This document shows, piece by piece, positions 933 to 56,752 of a stretch of DNA of 57,138 nucleotides. Source of the stretch: Prorocentrum cordatum (lineage: Eukaryota); contig CAUYUJ010000044.1 of assembly GCA_963575745.1 (NCBI GenBank), positions 62,001 through 119,138 of the forward strand. The letters run 5' to 3'. The notes below the pieces were generated by a model that saw only the letters and a list, made by a program, of their open reading frames with translations, did no database searches and was not told where the DNA came from. A program made the translations under genes and the position numbers. Every line of letters begins with the position of its first letter. Positions within the stretch are counted from its first letter, which is position 1.

Positions 933-1404
933 AATCATGGGAAACGGTCGCGCGCAAGGGGTGGCGTCGCGGAGACTTGGAATTCCGGATTACTCGTTAG
1001 GGGTCCTGCCCGAACGCTCCGATTTCCGAAGTTACAGGTTCCCGCCCTCCAGATTCCTTGGTCTTTTCCGGGCAGTCGTCTCCTCCTCCTCTGCTCCTGT
1101 CTTTTCCTCCAGTCCTCTCGGGTTTACCCAAAACGGGGTCCAGTGACAAGGGGGTGGTGCAGTAGATTTGGTGCAATAGATTTGTGGGGTTGCAATATAT
1201 TTGGGGCGTGCAGTACATGTCGGGGTGCAAATGTATTGCTGCATTTTCATGTGTTATGCCATTTGCTGCAATTTCGGGCGTGCCAATACATCATTTGCTA
1301 TACAATGCAATGCAATTCTCCGGCGCAATACATATGCAAAACAATTGCACCAAGTCTATTGCACTACCCCTTTTCAGTTGAACCCCGTTTTGGGTTGCCC
1401 AAAT

Positions 1405-1864
1405 CCTCTCCTCTCCTCTCATTTTCTCCTCTCCTCTCCTACTTCCATTTCTTCCTCTCTCCTCCTCTTCCTTCCTCTCCTCCTCTCCCCTCCTCCTCCC
1501 CGCCTGCTCCTCACCTCCTTTCTTCTCCTCCTCTCCTCTCCTCTCTTCTCCTCTCTTCATCTCCTCTCCTCATCTGCTCCCCTCTCCTCCTGTCCTCTCA
1601 TCCTGTCCTCAGCTCTCCTCTCATTTTCTCCTCTCCTCTTTTCTGCCCTCTCTTATTGTCCTCTCATGTTCTCCTCTCCTCTCCTCTCCCTTCCTTTCCT
1701 TTTCTCCTCCCCTCCTCTCGTCTCCTCCTCTCCTCTCCTCCCCTCGTCTCGTCCTCTCCTCTCCTTCCCTTCTCTCCTCTCCCCCCCCACGAGGAGGAGG
1801 AGGAGGAGGAGGAGGAGGAGGAGGAGGAGGAGGAGGAGGAGGAGGAGGAGGAGGAGGAGGAGGG
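1405..1864. repeat. CT-rich low-complexity tract followed by pure (GAG)n
   Basis: CTCCT/CTCT runs at 1405-1786, then (GAG)n at 1791-1864. Confidence 0.95.
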
Positions 1865-1879
1865 GACCGAACCTGAAAT

Positions 1880-4800
1880 CCGGAGCTGAAACCCTAAACT
1901 CTGGAGCTTCGGGTTTCCGACCTCTGGAGTCCCGGGTCTACGGCATCCTGGGAGCTTCTGGGGGCACTCTTGGGGCCTCCCGGAAGCTTCCTGGGAGCCT
2001 CTGGGAGGCCTCCTGGGACCACTTTGGGCCTCCTGGGAGCCTTTGGGGGCTTCTGGGGGGCTTCTTTGGCCGTCTCAGGGCATTCCTGGCCAGTCGGACG
2101 CCGTAGGAAGCCGTCTTGGGGGCCTCTTTGGGCCGAGATGAATCTCTCCTGGGGTACTCCGGGGCCGTCTTGGAGGCCATCTTGGGCGTCTTGGAGGCCT
2201 CTTGGGCTGTCTGGGGGCCCTCCTGGGGCCGTCTTGGGGGCCTCTTGGGCCGTTCTGGGATCTGTCGGGGCTCTTGGGTCGTCTCGGGTCGTCGGAAGGC
2301 CGAACAGAAGCGAGTGCCAACATCCTTCAAAAACCTACGGGAAATCAGTGAATTTGGCCTCATCGGGCCTTCCTGGAGGCCCTCTTGGAGGCCTCTTGGG
2401 CCTTCTTGGAGACCACTTGGGGGCCTCCTGGGCTGTTTTAGGCAATCTTAAAAGCCATCTTGGGCCGTCTTAAGGAGTTCCTGACCCATCTGACGCCGTC
2501 GGAAGTCGTCTTGGGGGCATCTCTGAACCGACTTGGGGCCCTCTTCGGGAGCTTCAGGGCCGGCTTGGAGACCACCTTGAACGACTTGAAGGCCTCATGG
2601 GCCGTCTTGGGGCCTTTTTGGGGCCGTCTTGGGGGCCTCTTGTGCCGTCATGGGGCCATCTTGGAAGCCTCTTGGGTGATCTTGGGGCGACCTTGTTGGC
2701 CTCTTGGGCTGTCTTAGGCCGTCTGAAGGTCGAAAAGGCGCAAATGAAAGAATCAGTCAATAACCTAAGGACAATCACTGTTTTTGGCCTCTTCGAGCCT
2801 TCCTGGAGGCCCTCTTGGAGGCCTCTGGGGCCGTCTTGGAAGCCTTTTGGGGGGGTCTCTTGGGCCGTCTTGGGCCATCCTGAGGCTATCTTAGGCCGTC
2901 TTTGGAGCATACCGGGCCGTCTGGGACGCATCTTGGGGCCATCTTAGCTGTCTTGGAGGCCATCTTAGCCGTCTTGGAGGCATCTTGGAGGCAATCTGAG
3001 GCCGTCTTAGCCGTCCCGGAGGCCGTCTTGAGCCGTCTTGGGAAATTTGTTTTGACAATTGCGGACCTTTCGGGTGGCCGAAGCCCCAGGGAGAGTTCTT
3101 TTGAAAAAGAACCAAAACCATCTCGTCTCAGGTCCAACACGCGGGGCACCCCTGTTGCAAGACCACAGGGGTCGGCGGATCGAAGACGCCTACGGCGAAT
3201 CACCGCCGCCCCCTGCCTTTTTGGAAGCGCCTATGTGGCCGAACGTTGGGGCGAGACCTGCCAAGCTATCGGACCATGTGTTCCCCGAATAGGTTTGGAA
3301 AGCCTTCGGGGAACACGTGGGCATCTTGAAGGTCATCTTGGCCGCCATTTTGACCCTTTCGGGCCTTCTTGGAGGACGTCTTGGATGGCTCTTGGGCCGT
3401 CTTGGAGGCCATCTTGAGCGTCTTGGAGGCCTCTTGGGCCGTCTTGGAGGCCTCTTGGGGCCGCCTTGGGCCTCTCGGGCGATCTTTGGGGGCACTAAGG
3501 CCGTCTCGGGCCGTCGGAAGGCCGAAAAAAAAGCAAATGCCACAATCCTTCAAAAACTCATGGGAACTCAATGATTTTGACCTTTTCTGGCCATTCTGGG
3601 GGCCCTCTTGGAGGCCTCTTGGGCCGTCTTGGGCCATCTCAGTGCCATCTTCGGCCGTCTTTGTGGGCCCCTGGCCCGTCCGACGCTGTCGGAAGCCGTT
3701 TGGGGGGCCTGTCTGAGCCGACTTGGGGCCCTCTTGGAATGCTCCAGGGCCGTCTTGGAGGCCATCTTGGGCGTCTGAAAAGCCTCCTGGGTCGTCTTGG
3801 AGGCCTCATGGGGCCGTCTTGGGGGCCTCTTGGGCCGTTCTGGGGCCATCTTGGAGGCCTCTTGTGCGATCTTTGGGGGCTCGTGGGCCGTATCGGGCCG
3901 TCAGAAGGCCGAAACGAAGCACATGTTTTTGGTCTTTTTTGGCCTTCCTGGAGGCCCTCCTGGAGGCCTCTTGGGCCGTCTTGGGCCAGCTTCGAGCCAA
4001 CTTCGGCCAACTTGGTGGGCTCCTGGCCTGTCTGACGCCGTCGGAAGCCGTTTGGGGGGCCTTTCTGGGCCGACTTGGGGCCCTCTTGAGGTGCTCCAGG
4101 GCCGTCTTAGAGGCCATTTTGGGCGTCTTGGAGGCTATCTTGGCCGTCTTGGAGCCCTCTTGGGGCCGTCCCGAGGGCCTCTTTGGCCGCCATGGGGCCA
4201 TCTTGGAGGCCTCGTGGGCGATCTTGGGGCGATCTTGGGGGCCTCTTGGGCCGTCTTGAGCCGTCACCGAGAAGAAGCAAATGCCCAAATCCTTCAAAAG
4301 CCTATGGAAAATCAATGAATTTGGCCTCTTCGGGCCCTCCTGGAGGACCTCTTGGAGGCCTCTTGGGCCGTCTCGGAGGCTTCTTGAGCGAACTTCGAGG
4401 TATCTCGGACTCTCTTGGGCCGTCTGGGAGGCCATCTTGGACCATCTTGGAGGCCATCTTGGGCCAACGTGGCCATCTTGGAGGCCATCTTGAGCCGTCT
4501 TTGAGAATTTTTTGCGGACGTTGAGGTCGTTTGCGGCCTGGAGCTCCCTCCCGGGACCCTGGCGGGACGCGCCGGAGCCCCAGGGGGAGTTCTTTTGGAA
4601 AAGAACCAAAACCAAAACCGAAATCATCTAGCACGCCAGGCACCCCTGGGATGAATCAACAGGGGGCGGCGGATCGAATGGCCTGCGGCACATCCCGCCA
4701 CCGTGCCTGGGCTGCGGGTCTGAGGCCACGCGGATGGCAGACGGGGTTTCGTGGGGGGCGTCTCGGGGGCGCTTGGGAAACAGTTTTGAACCGCGAGGTG

Positions 4801-5820
4801 GCCTCCTGGAGGCCTCTTGGGAGCTTTGTTCGGGCCTCTCGGGGCTCCTTGGGAGCGTGTTGGGGGCTTCTTGGGGCAGCCGGGGAGCGGTTTGGGGTCG
4901 ACGGCTCGAAATGTTCGTTTGGGTTCTCCTCTGGCCTCCCTTCTGGGGTTGTCCTGGAGCCCCCTGGGTCGTCCTGGGGGCTTCTTCAGCGGCCTTGGGG
5001 CCCTCTTGGGCTGTCTGGGGGCCCTCTTGGGGGCCTCTTGGGTCGTGGCCGTGCTGGGACGACACAGGAGGCTTCTTGGGCTGTCTTGGACGTTGTGAAC
5101 ATGCAAAAGGCGACTGTTCCGAAAATGCATGTTTTCCTTTGGGACTGGGGCGACTGTTACTTTTTGGAGGCCGTCCTGTGACGCCTCTTGAGGGCTTCTT
5201 GGGGCGTCTTGGGGCCCGTTTGGGCCGTTTGGAGGCCAGCGTGGGTGTTTTCGATTGATTTTTCGGCGGCTCATGGCCCTCTTGGACTGTGTAAGGGGGC
5301 TCTTGGTGCCTCTTGGCATTTCTTTCATGTATTTTCCCGCTTTTCGAGCGGTCTTGGGGCCCTCTTCGGTTGTCTCAGAGCCCTCTTCGGGGCCTCTTGG
5401 TACGTCTTGGGGCGACCCAGGAGGCTTCTTGAGCTGTCTTGGGCGCTGTTATCGCAGAAGAGGCGAACGTGCTAAACATGTAGGTTTCGCCGAGTGGAAG
5501 TATACAATGTTTTGCTCTTTGAGGCTTTCTTGGGACGCCTCTTGAGGGCTTCTTGGAGTGTCTTTGGGGCCGCTTGGGCCGTCTGGAGGCCATCGTTGGC
5601 ATTTTCGACCGATCTTTCGGCGGTCCGTGGCCCTCTTGGACCGTCCAGGGGGCCTCTTGGTGCCCTCTTGGCCTGTTTTGGGGCCCCCTGTCCCCCCCGT
5701 GATACGTTCGAGCAGTCCTTGGGGGACCATCCCCTCTCCAAATCGACCGGACTGGGCTCCCTGGGGTTTGGGGAGGGGGAAGCATCTCACGCGCCGAGGA
5801 ACCCCAAAGGGTCGGCGGAT
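1880..5820 (+). repeat. Cluster of dispersed repeats built from 10-11-bp GGCC(T/G/A)TCTTGG units (family A), at least three head-to-tail elements
   Basis: Many ggcctcttgg/ggccgtcttgg/ggccatcttgg units. A recurring A-rich module (…atccttcaaaa…tcaatgattttggcc) occurs near 2300, 2730, 3520 and 4270. Elements end in hairpin + CGGCGGAT at 3173, 4667 and 5813. Confidence 0.9.
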
Positions 5821-5849
5821 AATCTTTGAATGTGCTGCGAACTCTGAAA

Positions 5850-6130
5850 ACGAATGTCCGCTGCGCTGAGGCGAGAGCCACATTTTGAAAAGGAACCGCC
5901 GAGTGTGCGCGGCGCAGAGGCGAGAGCCATATTTTGAAAACGGCACGAATATGCGCGGCGGTGCGGCGAGAGCCACATGTTGGAAACGGCTCGTCTTCCA
6001 TCCGTGAAGCTCTTGCACGTTCGCAGCTTAAGAATCACAAGCGATGCGGGAGTCTCGGGCGAAACGCCCGGCCCGCCCTACGGAGACGCCGCAGGGTGCG
6101 CCAGGGAAGATTTATTCATAAGGAAACGGA
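5850..6130 (+). repeat. Dispersed repeat family B, copy 1 (gcgcggcgctgaggcgagagccacattttgaaaa units)
   Basis: Repeated ggcgagagccaca motif. The ~70-bp terminus at 6057-6126 (gggcgaaacgcccggcccgccc…gggtgcg.caggga.ga..tatt.ataa) is shared with 7248-7316. Confidence 0.85.
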
Positions 6131-6539
6131 CGGGGGAGCGAGGAGGAGGGAGTGGAGGAGAAGAACGATACTCACGAGGAGAATCAGGAGGAGGACCAGT
6201 GTAAACCCAAGCCTCGTCAACAATGTTGAAATACACCTTCCCTCCAAGATCCCTCTTCACAGGCCCCTACAAGGGGTCATTTCCACTGAGGGAATTGTCC
6301 CGTTGGGGCACATCCGTATGAACAACTTCAAGCGTGCCAGAACATGATTCTCATGACCTCAACGCCACGAGTTAACCTGAGTGTTACTTCTTGGCGGTCC
6401 TGAACCGTGCCAGAACACCATTGCTGGGATTTCAACACCGCGAATCAACGTAATCGTTGCGCCCTGACAATCTTGAATCGTTCCAAAACATAATTTCTGG
6501 TACGTTAGAGCCGTGAACTTCGTAAAGTGCTGCAACGAA

Positions 6540-7320
6540 CGTGCGCAGCGCTAACGCGAAAGACACATTGTGAAAAGAATCCGCCCTTCATCAGTGAAAC
6601 TTCTATGAATGTTTAGAACGAGTGCGCGCGAGGCTAAGGCGAGAGCCACATTGTGAAAACGATCCGCCCTCCATCTGTGAAGCTCATGGAAAGGTTCAAA
6701 ACGAGTGTGCGTGGCGCTAAGGCGAGAGCCACATTTTGGAAAGGAACCGCCCTCACGCTGTGAGGCTCTTGCAGAGTTTTAACATTCATGTGCGCGGCGC
6801 TGAGACGGGAGCCACATTGCGAACATCACCCGCCCTCAATCCGTGAAGCCCTTGCAATTTTTGGAAACTGAATGTGCGCGGCGGCCAAGGCGAAAGCCGC
6901 ATTTCGAAAACCACCCGCCTTCAATCCATGAAGCTTCTGTTGCTCATGTTTAAAACGAGTACGCGCGGCGCTGAGGCGAGAGCCACATTTTGTCAACGAT
7001 CCTCCTTCCATTTGTGAAATTGGTGTCAATGTTTAAGCATCAGGGTCATCAGTGGTGAGGAAGTCTTAGGCGCGGCGCTAAGGCGAGAGGCACATATTGA
7101 AAGCCCCCCCACAACCCGTGAAACTCTTTCAGATTTTTCGAAAAAGTATGCGCGGCGCTCCAGCGAGAGCCGCATTTTGAAAACCACCCGCCCTCCATCT
7201 GTAAAATTGCTGTCGACGTTTAAGCAACAGGGTCATTCATTAGTCGCAGGCGAAACGCCAGGCCCGCCCATTCGACCGGCCTCGGGGTGCGACAGGGACG
7301 AGCTATTTATAACGAACAGG
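6540..7320 (+). repeat. Dispersed repeat family B, copy 2 (roughly 77-bp tandem units)
   Basis: About eight units of gcgcggcgct.aggcgagagccacatt…ccgccctccatc.gtgaa, ending in the same terminal module as copy 1. Confidence 0.85.
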
Positions 7321-25759: not shown

Positions 25760-27110
25760 GAGAATATTCAGGCCGCAGGAGCGAGTTCCCCTTCGATCCT
25801 CCAAGTGACGACAAGAGACGGTCCTCAGACGGGACTACCCGCACCGCCCACAGACAAAGTTCCCGCTTGATACTTCCCCCTTGTTCAGGCCGCAGGAACT
25901 GAGGAGCCCAAAAAGCTCGCTCGGATGACCCGCTCGGGTTCGAACATGAAGTGCGTGCCCCACAGGGATGGAGCGCCCGCCTGATACTTCTCCCATATTC
26001 AGGCCTCAGGAGCCCAAAAGCGACGACAGTTACAGGTTTCCGATGACCCGCTCGGATTAGTAAGATGATCTGCGGGCCCCATAGGGAGGGGGCTTCCGCC
26101 TGAGACTTCCTCGCAAGTCACGCACAGACGAGGCTCCAGCCTGATCCTTCTCCCATATTCAGGCCTCAAGAGCCCAAAAGTGACGACAGTTACAAGATTC
26201 CGATGGCCCGCCTCGGATTAGTAACATGATCTGGGGGCCCCATAAGGAGGAGACCCCCGCCTGAGACTTCCTCGCAATTCACTCACAGACGAGGCTCCCG
26301 CCGGATACTTCCTCCAAATTCACGCCCCAGGAGCCCAAAAGTGACGACAGTTACAGGATCCCGATGACCCGCCTCGGATTGGTAAGATGATCTGCGGGCC
26401 CCATAGAGAGAGGCTCCCGCCTGAGACTTCCTCGCAATTCACTCACAGACAACGCTCCCGCCTGATACTTCCTCCAAATTCACGCCCCAGGAGCCCAAAA
26501 GTGACGACAGTTACAGGATCCCAATGACCCGCCTCGGATTAGTAAGATGATCTGCGGGCCCCATAGGGAGAGGCTCCCGCCTGAGACTTCCTCGCAATTC
26601 ACTCACAGACGACGCTCCCGCCTGATACTTCCTCCAAATTCACGCCCCGGGAGCCCAAAAGTCACGACAGTTACAGGATCCCGATGACCCGCCTCGGATT
26701 AGTAAGATGATCTGCGGGCCCCATAGGGAGAAGCTCCCGCCTGAGACTTCCTCGCAATTCACTCACAGACGAGGCTCCCGCTAGATACTTCCTCCAGATT
26801 CACGCCCCAGGAGCCCAAAAGTGACGACAGTTACAGGATCCCGATGACCCGCCTCGGATTAGTAAGATGATCTGCGGGCCCCATAGGGAGAGGCTCCCGC
26901 CTGAGACTTCCTCGCAATTCACTCACAGACGACGCTCCCGCCTGATACTTCCTCCAAATTCACGCCCCAGGAGCCCAAAAGTGACGACAGTTACAGGATC
27001 CCGATGACCCGCCTCGGATTAGTAAGATGATCTGCGGGCCCCATAGGGAGAGGCTCCCGCCTGAGACTTCCTCGCAATTCACTCACAGACGACGCTCCCG
27101 CTTGATACTC
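25760..27110. repeat. Satellite array: about 7 x 160-bp units preceded by shorter diverged units
   Basis: ctgagacttcctcgcaa at 26100, 26261, 26421, 26581, 26741, 26901 and 27061. Each unit has a 41-bp internal subrepeat. Confidence 0.97.
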
Positions 27111-29013: not shown

Positions 29014-30583
29014 CTGTAAATCTCCAGCACCTCTTCCTGTGTACCTTCCGCCCTGTCCTCGCCCCCCAGGGGGCGGGGTGGGGGTCGAGGCAGGCTTCCG
29101 TCGGGAAGGCCCGCCCACAGAGGGCGATTCTGCCCGCCACTCGCTGCCGCCGCCGCGCCCGAAGGCAGATCCCGCCCCCGGCGTCATGGCGGCTCCCCGT
29201 GGCTCCGGCGCAGCCGAAGGCGCGCCTGGTGGAAGAGGAGGAGGAGGAGGAGGAGGAGGAGGAGGAGGAGGAGGAGGAGGAGGAGAGGAAGAGGACGAGG
29301 AGACCGAGGAGGAGGAGGAGGAGGAGGAGGAGAGGAGGAGGAGGAGGAGGAGGAGGAGGAGGGGGGAGGAGGAGGAGGAGGGGGAAGAAGGAAGGAAGGG
29401 AGGAAGGGAGGAAGGGAGGAAGGGATGAAGGGGATGAAGGGAGGAAGGGAGGACGGGAGGAAGGGAGGAAGGGAGGAAGGGAGGAAGGGAGGAAGGGAGG
29501 AAGGAAGGGAGGAGGGAGGAAGGGTGGAAGGAACGGAGGAAGGGGAGGGAAGGAAGGAGGGGAGGATGAGGAAGGGAGGAGGGAGGAAGAGGAGGAGGAG
29601 AGGAAGAGGAGGAGGAGGAGGACGAGGACGAGGACGAGGAGGAGGAGGAGGACGAGGACGAGGAGGAGGAGGACGAGGACGAGGAGGAGGAGGAGGAGGA
29701 GTGAAAAGGAGGAGGAGGATGATGATGAGGAGGAGGAAGGAGGACGAGGAGGACGAGAGGAGGAGGAAGAGGACGAGGGCGAGGAGGAGGAGGTGCAGGA
29801 GGAGGAGGAGGGCGGAGAGGAGGAGAGGAGGAGGAGGAGGAGGGAGGAGGAAGAGGGAAGGAAGGAAGGAAGGAAGGAAGGAGGAGGAGGAGAGGAGGAG
29901 GACAACGAGGAGGACGAGGAGGAGGAGGAGGAGGAGGAGGAGGAGGAGGAGGAGAGGAGGAGGAGGAAGAGGACGAGGAGCCGAGGAGGAGGAGGAGGAG
30001 GAGGGGGAGGAGGAGGAGGAAAGGGACGAGGAGACCGAGGAGGAGGAGGAGGGAAGAGGAGGAGGACGAGGACGAGGAGGAGGAGGAGGGAGGAGAGGAG
30101 GAGGAGGACGAGGAGGAGGAGGAGGAGGAAGAGGAGTGAAAAGGAGAAGGAGGAGGATGAGGAGGAGGAGGAGGAGGAGGAGGAGGAAGGGAGGACGAGG
30201 AGGACGAGGAGGCGGAGGAAGAGGAGGAGGACAAGGAGGAGGCGGAGGAAGGAAGGAAGGAATGAGGAGGAGGACAACGAGGATGACGAGGAGGAGGAGG
30301 ACGAGCAGGACGAGGACGAGGAGGACGAGGAGGAGGCGGCGGATGCTGCTGATGATGATGAAACTGATGATGATGATGATGCTGATGATGATGATGATGA
30401 TCATGATGCTGATGATGCTGCTGCTGATGATGATGATGCTGATGCTGATGCTGATGATGATGATGATGATGCTGATGCTGATGATGATGCTGATGCTGAT
30501 GGTGCTGGTGGTGGTGGTGGTGCTGATGACGATGACGATGATGCTGATGATGATGATGCTGATGATGATGATGGTGGTGGTGG

Positions 30584-30651
<68 letters not shown>

Positions 30652-30686
30652 CTGCTGCTGATGACGACGACGATGATGATGATGAT

Positions 30687-30767
<81 letters not shown>

Positions 30768-30774
30768 CTGATGC

Positions 30775-30848
<74 letters not shown>

Positions 30849-30885
30849 CTGATTTTGATTATGATGATGTTTCTGATGATGCTGA
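27760..30885. repeat. Compound microsatellite region: (GAC/GGC)n, (CCT)n, (CGT)(CCT)(CAT)n, (GAG/GAA)n and (GAT)n, with short unique islands
   Basis: GAC/GGC at 27760-28042, CCT at 28250-28780, CGT-CCT-CAT at 28900-29011, purine tract at 29232-30340, GAT at 30341-30885. Confidence 0.95.
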
Positions 30886-37900: not shown

Positions 37901-38584
37901 CTTGCGTCGTGAGAATGAGAGATGATTGCGTCGTGAGAATGAGGACGGGATGGTTGCGTCATGATAATGAGTATGAGAGATGATTACGTCGTGAGAATGA
38001 GAGATGATTGCGCCGTGAGAGTGAGGCCTCGAGTGCTTGCGTCGTGAGAATGAGGACGGGATGGTGTTGTTTGCCGTTTTCGGCCTCTGGGGGCCCCCGC
38101 CCAGCCACGGGACGCAGGGTGAAAACCCGGGGTCCCGGGGAAGGGGTCCAAGCTTCTGGGGGTCGACGTTACGAAGCAAGTCGTGACGACGGGGGTCAGG
38201 GCCACGGGCAGCGACAGGATGGGCCTGGCCGAGGCTTGGCGGGGCTAGACCGGGATACATCGGCTGCGGTATGCGTAAGAGTGCCCCTTCGCCAGAGTGA
38301 CCTTCGGTGTGGGCCCACAGGGATCCCCCCCACCACTGGCCAGCGCGCTTGGATTGGCCTCCCCCGCGGTCCCATAGAGGTCGCGCGCCGAGGCTCACTC
38401 TTGCCCAGGGTCGCTTGCGCGTGCAACCGAATAAATCGCTCCAGGCCATTCCGCAGCGCTCCGGAATTGTCGCGCTCAGGAATGGCCGCGGGACCAGATG
38501 CAGATTCCAAACCCGCCAGAGCCCAGAGATCCCCGATCTATCCTGGCCTAGTTTTGTCCTGGTCTTGGCTTCGTCTCGTCGTGG

Positions 38585-39700
38585 GCGATCTTGGGGGCCT
38601 CTTGGGCCGTCTTGAGCCGTCGGAGTGCCGAAAAGAAGCACATGCCCAAATGCTTCAAAAACCTTAGGAAAATCTATGATTTTGGCCTCTTCGGGCCCTC
38701 CTGGAGGACCTCTTGGAGGCCTCTTGGGCCGTCTTGGAGGCCTCTTGGGGGCCTCTTGAGCCTCCGTGTGCAATCTGGAGGCCATATCAGGCCGTCTTGG
38801 GTGCATCTTGGGCCGTCTTGGGGGCATCTTGGACCATCTTAGCTGTCTTGGGCCCTTCTTGGGCGTCTTGGAGGCCTTGTGGGCCGTCTGGGGGCCCTCG
38901 TGGGGGCAAATCGGGGGCCTCTTGGGCCGTCATGGGGCCATCTTGGAGAGCTCTTGGGCGATCTTGGGGGCCTCTTGGGCCGTCGGAAGGCCGAAAAGGC
39001 GAAAATGCCGAAATCCTTCAGACACCTAGAAGGAAAGTCAATGATTTTGGCCTTTTCGGGCCTTCCTGAAGGATCTTTTGGAGACCTCTTGGGCTGTCTT
39101 GGAGACCTCTTAGGGGGCTCTTGGGCTGTCTTGGGCCATCTTGAGGCTATCTTAGGCCGTCTTGGGTGCATCTTGGGCCGTCTTGGAGGCATCTTGGGGC
39201 CATCTTAGCCGTCTTGGAGGCCATCTTGGCCGTCTTGGATGCATCTTGGAGGCCATCTTGGGCCGTCTTGGAGCCGTCTGGAGAGAAAAAACCTTTGCAA
39301 CCATCTCTGGGCAATCCTCCCCGGACCTCGGCGGGACTCGCCGGAGCCCCATGGAGAGTTCTTTTGGAAAAGAACCAAAACCAAAACCGAAATCGTCTAG
39401 CACGCCAGGCACCCCTGTGATGAATCAAAAGGGGGCGGCGGATCCTGGTGGTGGCCTTCGGCCCGTCCCGCCACCATGCCTGGGTTGTGGGCCTGAGGCC
39501 TCTTGTATATGTGTTGGGGTGTCGTGGGGAGCCTCTCGGGGGCCTCTTCGAAAGGATTTGGGCGCCTCTTAAAAGCCTCTTGGGGCCTCGTGGAGTATCT
39601 TTTGGGCTCATTGGGGGCCTCCTGGGCGCGTCTTGGGCGCCTCTTGGGGCCTCTCTTGACGGCCTTTGGGGCCTTTGGGGGCTACACGGGACCTCGGGGG
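38585..39700 (+). repeat. Family A (GGCCTCTTGG) element with terminal module
   Basis: 39356-39443 nearly matches 4587-4674 (gagttcttttggaaaagaaccaaaaccaaaaccgaaatc.tctagcacgccaggcacccctg.gatgaatcaa.agggggcggcggat). Confidence 0.9.
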
Positions 39701-39724: not shown

Positions 39725-40138
39725 AAGGGGATCGTGGCCCCAGAGGCGAACACGTGGCGTAATTCATGGGGGATCGTGGCTTCAGGAGCGTGAGTCTGGT
39801 GTATTTTGCGAGGGATCGTGGCTTCGGGGACGTGAATGCAGCACAGTTTGCGAGGGGTCTTGGCCTCGGGGGCGCGAATGCAGCGTCATTTGCGACGGAA
39901 TATTGCGTCGGCAGCGCGATTCTCAAGTGTTTCCCCAGTGCCCCCTGGAAATTCCGAGGACGTGATTCGGGGACGCTTGAGAAGATGGTTTTCGGTTTCC
40001 CCCCCTCGCGCGGACAGTAACTTACAGCAAGAAGCAGAAAGCAATACTGAAACATTGGAAACTGGAAACTGGAACTGGTGCAGGGAGCAGCGAACCTAAG
40101 CCTCGCAGCCTGATGGCCCCGCAGGGGGTCCGGCGGAT
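39725..40138 (+). repeat. Element with ~42-bp degenerate tandem units, ending in hairpin + CGGCGGAT
   Basis: gggatcgtggc at about 39728, 39770 and 39812, ggggtcttggc at 39854; CGGCGGAT at 40131-40138. Confidence 0.65.
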
Positions 40139-41689: not shown

Positions 41690-43670
41690 GATCGATAAAT
41701 CACAGGGTAAAGTAAGCATTTTCGTCTGTTGTGAATGTCTCGAGCGAAACGATGTCTGCATGATGTGGTGAGGATGTCTCGAGCGAAACGTGTGTTTTGT
41801 GCTATAGATCGTTCCTCTCCTGGGGACCAGAATTCGGAGGATGTCTCAGGTGAAATGCTTGTTTTCACGTGCCCAGGTCTTGAGGATGTCTCGAGCGAGA
41901 CGCTTGCTTTCACATGTCCAGGTCGCCCAGGCGGATGTCAAGCATGAGGAGAGGTTGAGCGAAACGCTTACTTTTACGTACCCAGGTCGCCCAGGCGGAT
42001 GTCTAGCATCAGGACAGGTTGAGGATGTCTCTCTCGAGAGACGCTTGTTTCACGTGCCCAGGTCGCCCAGGCGGATGTTTAGCATGAAGATGTGTTGAGG
42101 ATGTGTTGAGCGGAACGTTTGGTTTCACGTGTCCAGGTCGCCCAGGCAGATATCCAGCATGCGGATTTGTTGAGGATGTCTCGATAGAGACGCCGGTTTT
42201 CAAGCGTCCAGGTCGCCCAGGCAGATGTCTAGCACGAGTATATGTTGAGTATGTGTTGAGCGAAACGCTTGGTTTCACGTGTCCAGGTCGCCCAGATTTG
42301 TCGAGGATGCCTCGAGAGAGGGAAGCTTGTTTTCACGTGTCCAGGTCGGCCAGGCGGATGTCTAGCATGAGGATGTGTTGAGGAGTGTTGAGCGAAACGC
42401 TTGTTTTCACGTGTTTAGGTCGCCCAGGCGGATGTCTAACGTGAAGATGTGTTGAGGATGTCTCGAGCGAGACGCTTTCTTTCACGTGTCCAGGTCGCCA
42501 AGGCGGATGTCCAGCATGAGGCTGTGTTGTTGAGCGAACCGTTTGGTTTCACGTGCCCAGGTCGCCCAGGCGGATGTCTGACATGATGATTTGTTGAGGG
42601 TGTCTCTCTCTCTCTCTCGAGGGATAGATAGAGAGAGGCGCTTGTTTTCACGTGTCCAGGTCGGCCAGGCGGATGTCTAGCATGAGGATGTGTTGAGGAT
42701 GTGTTGAGCGAACTGTTTGGTTTCACGTGCCCAGGTCGCCCAGGCGGCTGTTTAACATGGTGATGCGGGCAGGACGTCTCGATCGATTTGTTTGTTTTCA
42801 CGTGTCCAGGTCGCTCAGGCAGATGTCTAGCACGAGGAGGTATTGAGAACATCTCGAGCGAGACACTTGGTTTCACGTGTCCAGATCGCCCAGTCGGATG
42901 TCTGACATGAGGATTTGTTGAGGATGTGTTGAGCGAAACGCTTGTTGCAGTAGAGTGCGTCGCAGTCCAACCCCGCCCGTCCGTGGGGCGTCCCCTGGCG
43001 CCCTGGCGCGCCATAGTGCGTCCCTTGCGACGTTCTGGCGTGACGTGCCCTGCCACGTCCCTTAGCACGCCACTCGGCGTGGCTTGTTCCCTGGCTCGTC
43101 CTCTGTCGCGTTTCCTTGCTCGTCCCCAGGCGCGTCCCCTGCCCGTTCCGTGGCGGGCCCCTTGCAACGTCCCTTGGCATGACGTGCTCTGGCCGCCCCA
43201 TGGCACGCTCTTTGGCACGTCCCCAGGGCACGTCCCCTGATGCGTCCCCTGACACGTCCCCAGGCGCATCCCCTATTGCGCCCCTGGCGCATCCTGTGGT
43301 GCGTCCGTGAGCCTGTGCCCCGTGTCGTGTCGTTCCTCGTCGGCGCTGAATCGGATTGAGGTCGAGTTGATTGAACGTCCTCCACGTTTTGAGCTCTGGG
43401 GCGGCTATTATGTGCTCACGCAGCTCGAGCTCAAGATCAAGATCAGTTCGGTCAGTACTCGAATGTTAAGGATGACTCGACCCACAACGCTATAGAGCAC
43501 AATTATGGTATGCCACATCGCAGTTCAGCATGGCACAGCAGAGCAAAGCCTTTGACACGGTACATCAAGATCGATACATTCAGCATTGTAATTGCCCGTT
43601 GTCCAATCAGGTGTCTTGAAAACGTTGCCATGCCTCACATTTCTTTATGGGTTCGTGGGCCGATCATGTT
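41690..43670 (+). repeat. Composite repeat family E, copy 1: ~76-bp tandem array, cgtcccc-rich insert, ~370-bp unique tail
   Basis: Units cacgtgtccaggtcgcccaggcggatgtctagcatgaggatgtgttgaggatgtctcgagcgagacgcttgtttt at 41860-42945. The tail 43308-43668 is homologous to 55120-55499. Confidence 0.92.
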
Positions 43671-44646: not shown

Positions 44647-45169
44647 CCTCCTCCTCCTCCTCCTCCTCCTCCTCCTCCTCCTCCTCCCCCTCCTCCTCCT
44701 CCTCCTCCTCCTCCTCCTCCTCCTCCTCCTCCTCCTCCTCCTCCTCCTCCTCCTCCTCCTCCTCCTCCTCCCCCTTCCTCTCCGCCTCCTCATTCTCCGG
44801 CTCGATCTAGTTCCCTTCGCGGGGTGGCCGCTCTTGCCCTCCGGCTGGCACGGGGACGAGGGAGGGGCGCAGGCGGAGGAAGGGAGAGGAGTGGAGAGGC
44901 CGGGCTTCATCACGAAGAGCAGGCGAATGAAGGGCAGGGAGAGCGTGGGTTCGCTTGGCGTCGTGCCCTGATCAGCTACTTTCTCCCCCAGTGAAAGGAA
45001 CCGCCACGACAGTCCCCAAGCATCACCCCAGCTGTTATAGGCGGTGGCGCTAGGAGCACGCGGGAGGAGGACGAGGAGGAGGAGGACAAGGAGGAGGAGG
45101 AGGAAGATCAGGAGGAGGAAGAGGATGAGGATGAGGATGAGGATGAGGGTGATGAGAATGATGATGATG

Positions 45170-45227
<58 letters not shown>

Positions 45228-45957
45228 GGCTGATGATGTTGATGTTGATGATGATGATGATGATGATGATGATGTTGAGGGGGAGGAGGAGGAGGAGGAC
45301 GAGGATGCTGAGGATGCTGATAATGATGATGCTGATGATGGTGATGGTGATGATGATTCTGGTGATGTCGCTGATGTTGATGATGATGATTGTGATGCTG
45401 ATGATGCTGATGATGATGGTGATGATGGTGATGATGATGATGATGCTGGTGATGATGATGAGGATGAGAGGATGATGATATTGACGATGATGATGCTGAT
45501 GCTGGAGATGAGGATGATGGTGATGATTATGATGATGCTGAGGATGAGGATGATGATGATGATGATGCTGAGGCTGATGAGGATGATGACGATGAAGCTG
45601 ATGTTGAGGATGAGGATATGATGATGCTGATGCTGATGAAACTGATGAGCATGGTGATGATGATGCTGATGAAGTTAAAACTTGAGCATGATGATCATGA
45701 TGCTGATTATGATGATGATGCTGCTGCGATGATGCTGCTGCTGATGCTGATGATGATGCTGTTGATGCTGATTGTGATGATGCTGCTGATGGTGATGATG
45801 ATGATGGTGATGATGATGCTGCTGCTGATGATGATGATGATGATGATGATGGTGATGCGGGGTAGGATGATGATGCTGCTGCTGATGATGATGATGATGA
45901 TGATGCTGCTGATGACGACGATGATGATGATGATGCTGATGCTGATGCTGATGCTGC

Positions 45958-46026
<69 letters not shown>

Positions 46027-46135
46027 GTAGGAGGAGAAAGAGGAGGAGAAGGAGGAACAGGAAGAAGAGGAAGTGGAGGAGGAGGAGGAGGAGGAGGAGG
46101 CGGATGGGCAGGTGTAGAGAGGAGGAAGGAGCGGG
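44647..46135. repeat. (CCT)n, (GAG)n and (GAT)n microsatellites
   Basis: CCT at 44647-44790; GAG/GAT at 45063-46135. Confidence 0.95.
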
Positions 46136-54679: not shown

Positions 54680-55499
54680 TATGTTGGAGGATGTCCCAGG
54701 TGAAACGCTTGTTTTCGAAGCCCCGATCGATGATATTCACGGTACGGCACACATTTTCGTTTGTTGCGCATGTCTCGAGCGAAACGCTTGTTTCGCAGAA
54801 TTGGTCGAGGATGTTTCGAGTGAGACGCTTGTTTTGTGTTATAGATGACTCCTCTCCTGGGGACCAGCATTCAAAGGATGTCTCGAGCGAGACGCTTGGT
54901 TTCACGCGTCCAGGTCGCCCAGGCAGATGTCTAGCATGAGGATCTGTTGAGGATGTCTTGAGCGAAACGCTTGTTCTCACGTGCCCAGGTCGCCCAGGTG
55001 GATGTCTAACATGAAGATGTGTTGAGGATGTTCCGAGCGAGACGCTTGGTTTCACGTGCCCAGGTCGCCCAGGCGCATATCTAAGATGAAGATCTGTTGA
55101 GGACGTCTTCGTGTCGTGATGAGCCTGTGCCCCGTGTCGTGTCGTTCATTGTCGGAGCTGAGTCGGATTTTGAGGTTGAGTCGAATGAACGTCTCGCACG
55201 TTTCCTTTTCAACTAGCTCTAGGGCAGCTACTATGTGCTCACGCAGCTCGAGTTTAAGGTCCAGATCAGTTCGGTCTAGTCTCGGATGCAAAGGAAGACT
55301 TGATCCACCGTGCTATAGAACACAGTCGCGGCATGGCACATCGCAAGTCAGCACCGCGCAGCACATCACAGCCTTTGGCACGGTGCATCAATATCGATAC
55401 ACTCAGCATTGCAATTGCCCGTCGCCCGATCAGGTGTCTTGAAAACGTTGCCATGCCTCACAATTCTTTATTATTTTCTGGGTTCGTGGGGCGATCATG
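54680..55499 (+). repeat. Composite repeat family E, copy 2 (short array, no insert)
   Basis: Shares the head (tcctctcctggggaccag), the ~76-bp units and the tail (aggtgtcttgaaaacgttgccatgcctcaca…gggttcgtggg.cgatcatg) with copy 1. Confidence 0.92.
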
Positions 55500-55502
55500 T
55501 CT

Positions 55503-56406
55503 TGACGATGATGCCGATGACGATGACGGCGGTGGCGTTGCTACGAATGATGATGATGTTGCTGCTGCTGATGATGATGGTTATGTTGTCAAGGATGATG
55601 ATGATTATCATTCCGATCATGATGATGCTGCTGCTGCCGATGCTGATGCTGATGATGATGGTGATGATGATGGTAATGATGAGGGTGATGCTGATTATGA
55701 TATTGATGAGGATGATGCTGCTGCTGCTGATGGTGATGGTGTTGGTGATGATGATGACGGTGGTGGTGATGATGATACTGCGAATGATGACAGTGATGAT
55801 GATGATGATGCCGATGCTGCTGATGATCATGATGCTATTAATGATGATGGTGATGTTGATGATGGTGATTATGATGATGCTGATAATGATGCTGATGCTG
55901 ATGATGATGCTGCCTATGATGATGATGACGATGCTGATGATGCTGATAATGATGATGCTGATTATGGTGATGATGCTGCTGATGATGCTGATGCTGATTC
56001 TAATGAATATGGTGATGATGCTGATGCTGATGCTGATTATGATGATTATGAGTATGATGATGCTGGTGATACTGATGATGAGTATGAGTATGATGGTGAT
56101 GTTCATGCTGCTGATGGTGATGATGATGCTGATGCTGCTGCTGCTGATGATGATTATGATGATGCTGATGATGTCGAGGGTGATGATGATGCTGCTGCTG
56201 ATGATAACGATGGTGATGATGAGTATGATAATGAGTATGAGTATGATGATGAGTATGAACATGATTATGATTATGAGTATGCGGATGATGCTGCTGCTGA
56301 TGATGATTATCATGAAGACCATGATAATGATGATGCTGATGACGATGGTGATGGTGATGGTGATGGTGATGGTGATGGTGATGATGAAGATGAAGCTGAA
56401 GATGAA

Positions 56407-56474
<68 letters not shown>

Positions 56475-56752
56475 CGATGATGATGATGATGGTGATGATG
56501 ATGATGATGCTGATGATGATGAGATTGATATGATGATTAATGTGATGATGATGATGTTGAATGATGATGATGATGATGGATGATATAAGATGATGATGAT
56601 GATGATGATGATGTGAATGATGATGATGAGCATGATGATGATTAATGATGATGATGATGATGATGATGAATGAATGATTGAATGATGTGATGATGAATGA
56701 GACAGGTTTTATGAATGATGATGCTGGTGGCGATGACGATGATGGCGATGAA
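55503..56752 (+). repeat. Old, diversified (GAT)n microsatellite
   Basis: GAT with GCT/TAT/GAG/GGT/AAT variants; in frame to 56583. Confidence 0.95.

What the first reader, a model, noticed from the sequence alone, without database searches (positions are those of the whole stretch)
3138..3210. Structure-conserved terminal module CACGC-[hairpin]-CGGCGGAT-[GCC-NNN-GGC hairpin]-CCGCC, found five times
Seen: CGGCGGAT at 3173, 4667, 5813, 39436 and 40131, always on the + strand and always directly after a C-run/G-run stem with a different loop (CCCCTG-11nt-CAGGGG twice, ACCC-CAAA-GGGT, CCCCT…AGGGG, GGCCCC…GGGGTC). CACGC or CTCGC lies upstream. Three copies continue with a triloop hairpin (GCC-TAC-GGC, GCC-TGC-GGC, GCC-TTC-GGC) and a CCGCC that can pair back with GGCGG. 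Bodies of different repeat families end in it. Established: a hairpin next to an invariant short motif is how HUH (rolling-circle) nucleases recognise single-stranded origins and ends. Inference: it is the shared cis signal of an undescribed mobilisation system, or a structured RNA.
Basis: partly seen in the sequence, partly recalled or inferred. Interest (0 to 1): 0.72.

Follow-up and report, generated by a model that had tools for sequence, protein, structure and literature searches.

The report
Hairpin core shared by abundant repeats
The short motif marks a real, roughly 90-base hairpin-forming core that several very abundant repeat families of a marine protist share, but only three of the five reported copies are genuine and what copies or uses it is still unknown.

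Summary
CGGCGGAT is at all five stated places, plus 30337 and 33711. Only 3173, 4667 and 39436 are demonstrably related. They are 77-78% identical copies of one element and the only significant hits of a profile and a covariance model. 5813 is at best a decayed half-copy. 40131 is not distinguishable from chance.

A pattern scan of metagenomes found the same module in 12 marine contigs, and none in 45 prokaryote or 2 viral pattern hits. Between families, similarity is confined to about -42..+46 around the motif. The module is (GATCY)-AACACGCC, a variable hairpin, GGGGGCGGCGGATC, a triloop hairpin, then CCGCC(GCCCCC). Both hairpins show compensatory changes.

The module is internal, not terminal. 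It occurs once per roughly 1-1.5 kb unit, always co-oriented with CTTGG-type satellite arrays, and is very abundant in four sequencing runs. No Rfam family, tRNA, Rep, helicase, recombinase or reverse transcriptase was found.

Best guess, about 0.35: a SINE-core-like folded RNA signal of composite repeats. An HUH mechanism is unsupported.

The parts
3131..3217 (+). Module copy 1 (family I). GGTCC 3131-3135; AACACGC 3136-3142; hairpin P2 ACCCCTGT 3148-3155 / ACAGGGGT 3165-3172; CGGCGGAT 3173-3180; triloop hairpin P4 CGCC 3187-3190, TAC, GGCG 3194-3197; CCGCCGCCCCCTG 3203-3215, which pairs back with CAGGGGTCGGCGG 3166-3178; T5 at 3218-3222.
   Evidence: Sequence. CM 108.2 bits, E 5.9e-23 over 3121-3247. 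nhmmer E 4.7e-21. RNA fold z = -3.74, 0 of 200 shuffles as stable. The T at 3172 is private: G is read there in 90, 53, 26 and 77 contigs of four runs.
4625..4712 (+). Module copy 2 (family II). CACGC 4632-4636; P2 CCCCTG 4643-4648 / CAGGGG 4660-4665; CGGCGGAT 4667-4674; P4 GCC-TGC-GGC 4681-4689; CCGCC 4695-4699; local long-range pair CCAGGCAC 4636-4643 / GTGCCTGG 4703-4710.
   Evidence: Sequence. CM 87.1 bits. nhmmer E 1e-16. Fold z = -1.69.
39394..39485 (+). Module copy 3 (family II), inside a solitary unit of about 1.15 kb (38540-39700).
   Evidence: 78% identical to 4547-4877 over 337 nt. CM 77.3 bits. nhmmer E 9.8e-16. Fold z = +0.11.
5779..5820 (+). Possible decayed 5' half-module: GCATCT-CACGCGCC, a mini-hairpin ACCC-CAAA-GGGT, then CGGCGGAT. 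It has no triloop hairpin. A 46/83-bp satellite starts about 7 nt further on.
   Evidence: Upstream similarity to 4667, p = 0.001. Against this: nhmmer E = 2.2, not listed by the CM, fold z = +0.06.
40099..40138 (+). Reported fifth copy. Not shown to be a member.
   Evidence: nhmmer E = 33. Not listed by the CM. The stem needs a G-T pair. Upstream similarity p = 0.06-0.43.
3095..3112 (+). Upstream hairpin H0 (GTTCTTTT-GA-AAAAGAAC) of the family I/II element. It is invariant in the three window copies.
   Evidence: Alignment A1. An exact scan for it in metagenomes found 0.
3274..3320 (+). Downstream hairpin of the family I element (GTGTTCCCCGAA ... TTCGGGGAACAC).
   Evidence: Self-match as an inverted repeat. 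Present twice in L038.
1950..5700 (+). Composite tandem block. CTTGG-type 10/11/21-bp satellite arrays with a 352-bp higher-order unit, interrupted by the modules at 3173 and 4667 (spacing 1494, then 1146 to 5813).
   Evidence: TRF. 98 CTTGG on the + strand against 1 CCAAG in 1900-5800.
38540..39700 (+). Second block: CTTGG-type array, family II element, then a short array.
   Evidence: 36 CTTGG against 0 CCAAG.

Best explanation
What it is (confidence about 0.85). CGGCGGAT is the centre of a conserved core of roughly 88 nt. The core reads (GATCY)-AACACGCC, a 5-nt linker, a C-run/G-run hairpin P2 with a variable interior, GGGGGCGGCGGATC, a triloop hairpin P4 ([C/G]GCC-TNC-GGC[G/C]), then CCGCC(GCCCCC). 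In family I the last block closes a 13-bp stem onto CAGGGGGCGGCGG. The core lies inside, not at the end of, several families of very abundant, strand-polar composite repeats of one lineage of marine protists. Each unit of about 1-1.5 kb has a unique hairpin-rich part with one core, followed by a satellite array. Three window copies are real, 5813 may be a decayed half, and 40131 is probably chance.

How it works (inferred, about 0.35). The core acts as a folded single strand, most likely + strand RNA. It is the cis signal that the copying machinery of these non-coding repeats recognises. It would then be comparable to the conserved central domains of SINE superfamilies, or to the stem-loops that LINE reverse transcriptases recognise. 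Short tandem arrays would grow on its 3' side.
For: Shown:
- Three significant window copies.
- 12 of 71 metagenome pattern hits carry the module, against 0 of 45 prokaryote and 0 of 2 viral hits.
- The 7-mer AACACGC was taken from the window copy and was not part of the search pattern. It lies at -48..-16 in 6 of 70 metagenome hits and in 0 of 47 controls.
- A profile built from the three window copies alone gives 45-70 bits to 5 loci.
- Similarity between families ends at about -42 and +46.
- P2 folds in 13 of 14 modules with different inner stems: TGAT/ATCA, TGGC/GCCA, TGAC/GTCA, TGCA/TGCA, CTGC/GCAG. Cognate half-hairpins beat swapped ones; 232 of 20000 permutations reach the observed sum.
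- The outer pair of P4 is C-G in 8 rows and G-C in 5.
- The long hairpin is 77.8% paired, against 32-56% when the partner is slid.
- The module is co-oriented with CTTGG arrays in 8 of 8 array-bearing loci and in both window blocks.
- There is one module per unit: L034 has a period of 1013 bp, and the ends of L050 repeat at 1084 bp.
- It is very abundant: 26-90 distinct contigs per run cover position 3172 in four runs.

Hints for the RNA/retroposon reading:
- A T5 run follows the closing stem in family I and in L015.
- Unrelated arrays begin 7-150 nt downstream: the CTTGG type, the 46/83-bp type at 5827, and (GAATGAAT)n in L008.
- Upstream GATCC, GATCT, GATTT and GGTCC variants all keep pairing with GGATC through wobble pairs; 6 of 14 pair fully.
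Against: - No reverse transcriptase, LINE partner, poly-A tail, target-site duplication or Pol III box was found.
- The units are largely tandem, which unequal crossing-over explains without any mobility.
- Nothing shows transcription.
- Both strands fold equally well (z = -3.74 and -2.78). G-U and A-C mismatches are balanced, 8 against 10.
- The search pattern fixed 21 positions, so conservation there says nothing.
- Covariation rests on about 8 lineages and is modest: 23 of 500 shuffles reach the score.
- With the window-only profile, 7 of the 12 loci score 14.6-20.6 bits, within the range of chance hits (up to 22.4). Their membership rests on AACACGC and the architecture.
- Family II copies fold poorly (z = -1.69 and +0.11).
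- The long stem is degraded in family II and in L008, L031 and L053: 10-12 of 18 pairs.
Confidence: 0.35

Rival explanations
1. Plain satellite DNA. The core is simply the best-conserved stretch of a macro-satellite unit. It is kept by gene conversion, or because a DNA-binding protein or a cruciform uses it. There is no mobility and no RNA role.
For: - Tandem units: window spacing of 1494 and 1146. L034 has a period of 1013 bp at 85.7% identity, and the ends of L050 are 100% identical over 102 nt.
- L062 shows the same family I then family II order as the window.
- The near-perfect palindrome folds equally on both strands.
- G-U and A-C mismatches are balanced.
Against: - The core also occurs with unrelated flanks and without CTTGG arrays in L008, L015, L031 and L053, contigs of 43-56% GC.
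- Compensatory changes across families argue for selection on pairing rather than on sequence.
Confidence: 0.25
2. Multi-copy small RNA gene of about 90-100 nt, with its pseudogenes. It would be arranged like 5S, spliced-leader or snRNA arrays, with satellite spacers.
For: - Discrete boundaries at about -42 and +46.
- A conserved stem-loop architecture.
- A closing GC stem followed by T5 in family I and L015.
- One copy per tandem unit.
Against: - No Rfam family, even in a search of only 251 nt at E <= 10.
- Copies within one genome differ by about 22%.
- There is no T run in families II and III.
- 26-90 distinct variant contigs per run cover one position, which fits a repeat better than a gene.
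Confidence: 0.12
3. A hairpin plus an invariant motif is the recognition and nick site of an HUH (rolling-circle, Helitron- or IS200/IS605-like) nuclease, and arrays arise by failed termination.
For: - A hairpin abuts an invariant single-stranded block.
- The polarity is strictly module then array.
- 5813 and 40131 both stop resembling the module right after CGGCGGAT-AA.
- L050 closes on itself with a period of 1084 bp, as a circle or a tandem would.
Against: - No Rep or helicase domain in 116 window ORFs or in 50 of 105 ORFs of the related loci.
- The module is internal; homology runs on for 100-500 nt on both sides within families.
- I saw no TC...CTRR-type ends in the flanks I read (a feature recalled from my own knowledge).
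- 0 of 45 prokaryote pattern hits carry the module.
- 5813 and 40131 are not demonstrable members.
Confidence: 0.1
4. Self-cleaving or otherwise self-processing RNA domain, present once per satellite unit, as in hammerhead-bearing satellite transcripts.
For: - One conserved structured domain of about 88 nt per tandem unit.
- Conserved unpaired blocks (AACACGCC, GGATC) lie next to helices.
- The central G-rich strand has two alternative pairings.
Against: - No hammerhead, twister, twister-sister, pistol, hatchet or HDV-like hit in Rfam at permissive thresholds.
- My hand mapping onto HDV-like and twister topologies, recalled from memory, did not fit.
- There is no transcription evidence.
Confidence: 0.08
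5. Coincidence: there is no module at all, only a G/C-rich 8-mer next to chance stems.
For: - After collapsing the family there are 5 independent hits against 3.6 expected.
- Stems of 4 bp are common, at 9-14% of positions.
Against: - Three copies at E <= 1e-15.
- External relatives with AACACGC in 6 of 70 hits against 0 of 47 controls.
- 5 loci at 45-70 bits with a window-only profile.
Confidence: 0.02

Closest known systems
Conserved central ('core') domains of SINE superfamilies (CORE-SINE, V-SINE, Deu and Ceph types). Recalled from my own knowledge; no paper was read.
   Same: A block of about 65-100 nt is conserved across otherwise unrelated, very abundant non-coding repeat families and across species. 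It is internal to the element, and its function is unknown.
   Different: No tRNA, 5S or 7SL head was found (ARAGORN 0; Rfam 0). No LINE-type tail and no target-site duplications were seen. The units here are mostly tandem and carry satellite arrays.
3' stem-loops recognised by LINE reverse transcriptases and shared with partner SINEs, followed by short tandem repeats (the eel UnaL2/UnaSINE1 type). Recalled; no paper was read.
   Same: Conserved hairpins are shared by different repeat bodies. Short tandem repeats start a little further 3'.
   Different: The module is 7-270 nt from the arrays, and in family I another 110 nt of conserved element follows it. No reverse transcriptase ORF was found anywhere.
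Helitron/Helentron 3' hairpins, and non-autonomous elements that carry satellite arrays (oyster satellitome, PMC8268682: search listing and start of abstract only).
   Same: A GC-rich hairpin, strict strand polarity, and satellite arrays tied to a non-coding element.
   Different: No Rep/helicase. The hairpin is not near an element end. I saw no CTRR-type terminus in the flanks I read (feature recalled).
Recalled.
   Same: A hairpin directly beside an invariant short motif.
   Different: Those are prokaryotic and come with a TnpA or RAYT gene. Here 0 of 45 prokaryote pattern hits show the module, and no such ORF was found.
Self-cleaving satellite transcripts (hammerhead in newt satellite 2, and retrozymes). 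Recalled.
   Same: One structured RNA-sized domain per tandem unit.
   Different: No known ribozyme family matches. Cleavage and transcription are untested.

Membership tests
Any Rfam 15 RNA family (including snRNAs, 5S, SRP, RNase P/MRP, hammerhead, twister, pistol, hatchet, HDV-like) | Covariance-model score at or near the family's gathering threshold | tested here: not met
   0 hits at gathering in the whole window. Only unrelated weak hits at E <= 5 around the copies, at E <= 1 in the 12 loci, and at E <= 10 in 3085-3335.
tRNA-derived SINE | A tRNA-like head with A and B boxes | tested here: not met
   ARAGORN finds 0 tRNAs on either strand of the window. Boxes were looked for only by eye.
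SINE/LINE-type retroposon | Target-site duplications, an A-rich or microsatellite tail at a fixed 3' end, and a partner LINE with a reverse transcriptase that shares the 3' end | tested here: inconclusive
   No reverse transcriptase domain in 116 window ORFs or in 50 of 105 locus ORFs. Arrays do start 3' of the module. Target-site duplications could not be assessed without empty sites or a genome.
Helitron / Helentron | A Rep-helicase ORF in autonomous copies | tested here: not met
   No Rep or helicase Pfam hit. Only 57 kb plus about 15 kb of related contigs could be searched.
Helitron / Helentron | A hairpin about 10-12 nt before a CTRR 3' terminus, with a 5' TC (recalled definition) | tested here: not met
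   Within-family homology continues 65 to more than 480 nt past the hairpin.
IS200/IS605 or REP/RAYT (HUH) | An associated Y1 HUH transposase gene and a prokaryotic host | tested here: not met
   No such ORF. The module is absent from 45 pattern hits in 185,579 prokaryote species genomes.
Tandem (macro-)satellite DNA | Head-to-tail units of similar length, each with the same parts in the same order | tested here: met
   L034 positions 1-207 match 1014-1230 at 85.7%. L050 positions 2-103 match 1086-1187 at 100%. Window modules lie 1494 and 1146 nt apart with homologous arrays between them. The family I then family II order recurs in L062.
Structured RNA under selection (generic) | Compensatory base changes that exceed controls | tested here: inconclusive
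   The P4 outer pair is CG in 8 rows and GC in 5. The covariation score is reached by 23 of 500 shuffles. P2 half-swap test: 232 of 20000. There are few independent lineages, and 21 positions were fixed by the search pattern.
Structured RNA under selection (generic) | Transcription, and a strand-specific substitution pattern (G-U tolerated, A-C not) | tested here: inconclusive
   8 G-U against 10 A-C cells in the long hairpin and P4. Wobble-only variants occur in the putative GATCY/GGATC pairing. Transcription is not testable with these tools.

The most novel reading that the evidence does not exclude
The core is the cis-acting origin or processing signal of an undescribed replicative system of marine protists. 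That system would both spread the unit and spawn tandem arrays directly 3' of the core. It could be a new self-processing RNA, or a new nick or priming site. This would explain why three unrelated kinds of array all begin 7-150 nt downstream of it and always in the same orientation: the CTTGG type, the 46/83-bp type at 5827, and (GAATGAAT)n in L008.
Probability: 0.15. Interest if true: 0.8.

Novelty: new variant of a known kind. Interest (0 to 1): 0.5.

Why it matters
Large protist genomes, dinoflagellate-like ones included, consist mostly of repeats whose origin and way of spreading are unknown. This finding gives three things:
- a short element of defined sequence and structure;
- one that is conserved across several repeat families and across contigs of 43-60% GC;
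- one that is present at very high abundance in four independent runs.

Such an element is a concrete handle. It can be used to census these repeats, to find a possible autonomous partner, and to test directly (by transcription, cleavage or protein binding) how satellite arrays are seeded. If it turns out to be only the best-conserved part of a satellite, it is ordinary.

Tried and rejected
- Own genome: none is held, so no genome-wide census or empty-site mapping was possible.
- Earlier notes of this scan: nothing for this genome or this sequence. A word search gave only unrelated phage, virus and plastid hairpin notes.
- Exact scan of metagenomes for the upstream hairpin block (GAGTTCTTTTGRAAAAGAACCAAAACC): 0 hits.
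- Viral contigs: 2 pattern hits, both scoring as chance.
The lineage therefore stays unverified.
- Sequencing runs: no RNA holder is listed. X4 is only guessed to be RNA, so nothing can be said on expression.
- Read laying. Summed word depth is about 100-fold higher in 3102-3303 than in 3001-3101, and in 4516-4717 than in 4718-4919. The tool warns that contig depth cannot rank parts, so I use this only as a hint that the module-bearing stretches are the abundant ones.
- Literature: six sequence strings searched anywhere in the text returned 116 papers, all primer-like hits in the 15 listed, and none with the module's 14-mers. A topic search gave nothing specific (92 papers, 15 listed). No paper was read in full.
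- Homologues of the P-loop NTPase ORF beside the L015 module: one unnamed protein, so no taxon.
- A long-range pairing CCAGGCAC/GTGCCTGG is perfect at 4667, has 7 bp at 39436 and is absent from L062. It is lineage-specific and not part of the consensus.
- The RNAalifold alternative (CGCC of CACGCC with GGCG) never varies, so it is uninformative.
- HDV-like and twister topologies, recalled from memory, were mapped by hand. Strand order does not fit, and Rfam finds nothing.
- A tRNA-like reading of the reverse strand: not conserved between families, and ARAGORN finds none.
- A column-wise pair count for P2 failed because MAFFT puts the stems of different families in different registers. I used per-sequence folds and a half-swap test instead.
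Full report
**Observation**

The 8-mer CGGCGGAT lies at the five stated places and also at 30337 and 33711, always on the + strand. Shuffles give 3.60 +/- 1.57, and 2 of 100 reach 7. Among 840 8-mers of the same composition, 1.0% occur 7 or more times and 2.6% occur 5 or more times on the + strand.

| Site | Stem directly upstream |
|---|---|
| 3173 | 8 bp |
| 4667 | 6 bp |
| 39436 | 5 bp |
| 5813 | 4 bp |
| 40131 | 6 bp, only with a G-T pair |
| 30337, 33711 | none |

Such stems are not rare here. A perfect stem of 4 bp or more ending within 1 nt is found at 9.3% of 6000 random positions and at 13.8% of the 918 positions before CGG. C[AT]CGC within 45 nt upstream is found at 9.9% of 20000 random positions.

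**How many copies are real**

3173, 4667 and 39436 are copies of one element. 3077-3207 matches 4571-4699 at 77%, and 4547-4877 matches 39316-39650 at 78% over 337 nt (alignment A1). 5813, 40131 and 33711 have no BLAST relative in the window apart from neighbouring satellites.

A profile HMM of 14 modules finds exactly three significant window hits, at E = 4.7e-21, 1e-16 and 9.8e-16. On the + strand the next are a noise hit at E = 1.1, then 5813 at 2.2, 33711 at 8.6, 40131 at 33 and 30337 at 79. The one other hit below E = 1 (E = 0.005) is the copy at 3173 read on its reverse strand.

A covariance model run with filters off gives 108.2, 87.1 and 77.3 bits for the three. After these comes the 3173 hairpin read on the reverse strand (15.5 bits). 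Nothing else exceeds 7.9 bits, and 5813 and 40131 are not listed at E <= 10.

The 45 nt upstream of 5813 do resemble 4667: AAKCATCTnnCnCGCC-AGGnACCCC, empirical p = 0.001 against 3000 control positions. This stretch contains the GCATCT-CACGCGCC motif seen throughout the family. I therefore keep 5813 as a possible decayed half-copy. 40131 (p = 0.06-0.43) is not supported.

**Relatives elsewhere**

No genome is held for the window.

- An exact scan of metagenome contigs for the invariant upstream hairpin block found nothing.
- A scan for GGGGNCGGCGGATC-N4-10-GCCTNCGGC gave 71 loci. 12 of these carry the whole architecture: L004, L008, L015, L016, L031, L034, L036, L038, L050, L053, L062 and L071.
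- The same pattern gave 45 loci in one genome for each of 185,579 prokaryote species, and 2 in viral contigs. None has the architecture. In profile scores they reach at most 21.7 bits and match only the enforced part.

Because the pattern fixes 21 positions, I tested unenforced features.

- The 7-mer AACACGC, taken from window 3136-3142, lies at -48..-16 in 6 of 70 metagenome hits and in 0 of 45 prokaryote and 0 of 2 viral hits.
- A profile built from the three window copies alone gives 45-70 bits to L036, L062, L050, L038 and L034.
- It gives only 14.6-20.6 bits to the other seven, which overlaps chance hits (up to 22.4 bits).

Membership of those seven therefore rests on AACACGC, the hairpins and their mutual similarity.

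**The module and its limits**

Pairwise alignments between families that span the motif run only from about -42 to +46. Examples are L004/L015 at -40..+42, L015/L036 at -40..+44 and L008/L031 at -22..+38. Within families they run for hundreds of bases: L004/L071 at -83..+476, and L034/L050 at -152..+814.

The consensus (A3) is (GATCY)-AACACGCC, five bases, hairpin P2, GGGGGCGGCGGATC, 4-9 bases, hairpin P4, 4-8 bases, then CCGCC. The module is, however, internal to every family, not terminal. In family I a further 110 nt or more with another 12-bp hairpin (3274-3320) is conserved downstream.

**Structure**

*P2.* It folds in 13 of 14 modules; L016 is the exception. The outer pairs are CCC/GGG, but the interiors differ:

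| Loci | Inner stem or loop |
|---|---|
| L036, 4667, 39436 | TGAT/ATCA |
| L062, L034, L050 | TGGC/GCCA |
| L015 | TGAC/GTCA |
| L008 | TGCA/TGCA |
| L004, L071 | CTGC/GCAG |
| L031 | TTCG loop |
| L053 | TAC loop |

When 5' and 3' halves are swapped between eight lineages, the cognate sum is reached in 232 of 20000 permutations.

*P4.* Its outer pair is C-G in 8 rows and G-C in 5. L015 adds an A-T pair and L053 a T-A pair.

*Long stem.* In family I, CAGGGGGCGGCGG pairs with CCGCCGCCCCCTG as a 13-bp stem that encloses P4. Across all 14 rows this long hairpin with P4 is 77.8% paired, against 32-56% when the partner is slid. The covariation score is reached by 23 of 500 shuffles. The stem is degraded in family II and in L008, L031 and L053, at 10-12 of 18 pairs. 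It also competes with P2 for the G run.

*Fold stability*:

| Copy | z-score |
|---|---|
| 3173 | -3.74 (0 of 200 shuffles as stable) |
| 4667 | -1.69 |
| 39436 | +0.11 |
| 5813 | +0.06 |
| 40131 | -0.46 |

The reverse strands fold as well (-2.78 and -2.80). G-U and A-C mismatches are balanced, 8 against 10. So nothing yet tells RNA from DNA, or one strand from the other.

One weak hint is an upstream GATCY that can pair with GGATC. It pairs fully in 6 of 14 rows, and its variants GATCC, GATCT, GATTT and GGTCC differ only by wobble-compatible changes. A score of 4.5 or more is seen in 5 of 14 rows, against 4% of controls.

**Context**

The window copies sit in blocks of CTTGG-type 10/11/21-bp satellite with a 352-bp higher-order unit.

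- The metagenome contigs L034, L036, L038 and L062 show the same satellite and the same layout.
- L062 carries a family I 3' part about 900 nt before a family II module, the same order as in the window.
- L034 is a tandem with a 1013-bp period. L050 has identical 102-nt ends 1084 nt apart. That makes one module per unit of about 1-1.5 kb.
- In 8 of 8 array-bearing loci and in both window blocks the module is co-oriented with the arrays. For example, 98 CTTGG against 1 CCAAG in 1900-5800.
- L008, L015, L031 and L053 carry the module without these arrays and with mutually unrelated flanks.
- Arrays of different kinds begin shortly downstream of modules. The CTTGG type starts about 50 nt after 4667 and 39436. 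The 46/83-bp satellite starts about 7 nt after 5813. (GAATGAAT)n starts about 110 nt after the L008 module.

**Abundance**

Logan contigs of four runs (three labelled organisms and one metagenome) were laid on 2900-5900 at 85% likeness or more, and they cover the modules heavily. At 3172 the window's T is replaced by G in 90, 53, 26 and 77 contigs. This matches the GGGGG of all external copies. At 4685 the majority reads T, the TTC loop of 39436 and L062. The tool warns that summed contig depth is not a copy number.

**What it is not**

- No Rfam family matches at any threshold tried, and there is no tRNA.
- No Pfam domain of a Rep, helicase, recombinase or reverse transcriptase was found in 116 window ORFs of 140 aa or more. 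These 116 were kept out of 180 after dropping low-complexity ORFs and those containing N.
- The same holds for 50 of the 105 ORFs of 80 aa or more in the 12 loci.
- The module's 14-mers occur in none of the papers returned by the string search.

**Interpretation**

The safest statement is that this is the conserved, two-hairpin core of a superfamily of abundant, polar, composite repeats.

I favour, at about 0.35, a folded RNA cis-signal like the central domains of SINE superfamilies or the stem-loops recognised by LINE reverse transcriptases. Four things point that way:
- the discrete boundaries;
- the unrelated flanks;
- the T5 run after the closing stem in family I and L015;
- the arrays on the 3' side.

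The rivals, with my estimates:

| Reading | Probability |
|---|---|
| Plain satellite | 0.25 |
| Small RNA gene array | 0.12 |
| HUH/rolling-circle signal | 0.10 |
| Self-processing RNA | 0.08 |
| Coincidence | 0.02 |

None of these can be excluded without a genome-wide census and RNA data.

Noticed in passing
L031:1-200 (module at 54-128) against L031:196-1603: The module occupies the GC-rich first 135 nt or so of a contig. The rest of that contig is AT-rich and encodes GldH (E 3.6e-40) and a PSP1 domain (E 1.6e-30), which are typical Bacteroidota genes. It is either a chimeric assembly or a module copy beside bacterial DNA. I could not decide which.
   Followed up: partly
L015:132-893 (- strand, same strand as the module): A 254-aa ORF with P-loop NTPase hits (AAA_28, E 1.1e-07) starts about 120 nt downstream of the module and its T5 run. 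Its only homologue is an unnamed protein that is 86% identical.
   Followed up: partly
window 5827-7184: A 46/49/83-bp satellite (unit ACGAATGTGCGCGGCGCTGAGGCGAGAGCCACATTTTGAAAA...) starts 7 nt after the CGGCGGAT at 5813. Its first part, 5829-5900, which is all of it that was laid, has among the highest summed depths in all four runs laid.
   Followed up: no
window 14382-16831, 21918-22801, 29231-30885, 45063-46100, 55547-56696 and others: Very long trinucleotide arrays, for example (TGA)n of about 814 units, (GAT)n, (GGA)n and (ATG)n. No ORF of 140 aa or more in the 57 kb has a credible Pfam domain. A 100-N gap lies at 22802-22901.
   Followed up: no
window 41837-42946 and 54875-55108: A 75-bp satellite whose unit contains CCCAGGCGGATGTC, that is GGCGGAT again. 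It may be chance. I did not test it for relation to the module.
   Followed up: no
window 25976-27109: A 160-bp tandem repeat, 7.1 copies, 93% matches. It is the best-preserved array of the window.
   Followed up: no
L050:2-103 against 1086-1187: The contig ends are 100% identical over 102 nt. This is the signature of a circular molecule or of a collapsed tandem with a period of 1084 bp, containing exactly one module.
   Followed up: partly
window 2290-2360, 2725-2790, 38620-38690, 38985-39050; L036:175-215 and 545-600: A recurring unique piece inside the CTTGG arrays (GCCGAAAAGG...CAAAAACCTAGGAAAATCA.TGATTTTGGCC) marks a higher-order unit of about 350-430 bp. A related piece occurs in the lower-GC contig L053.
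   Followed up: no
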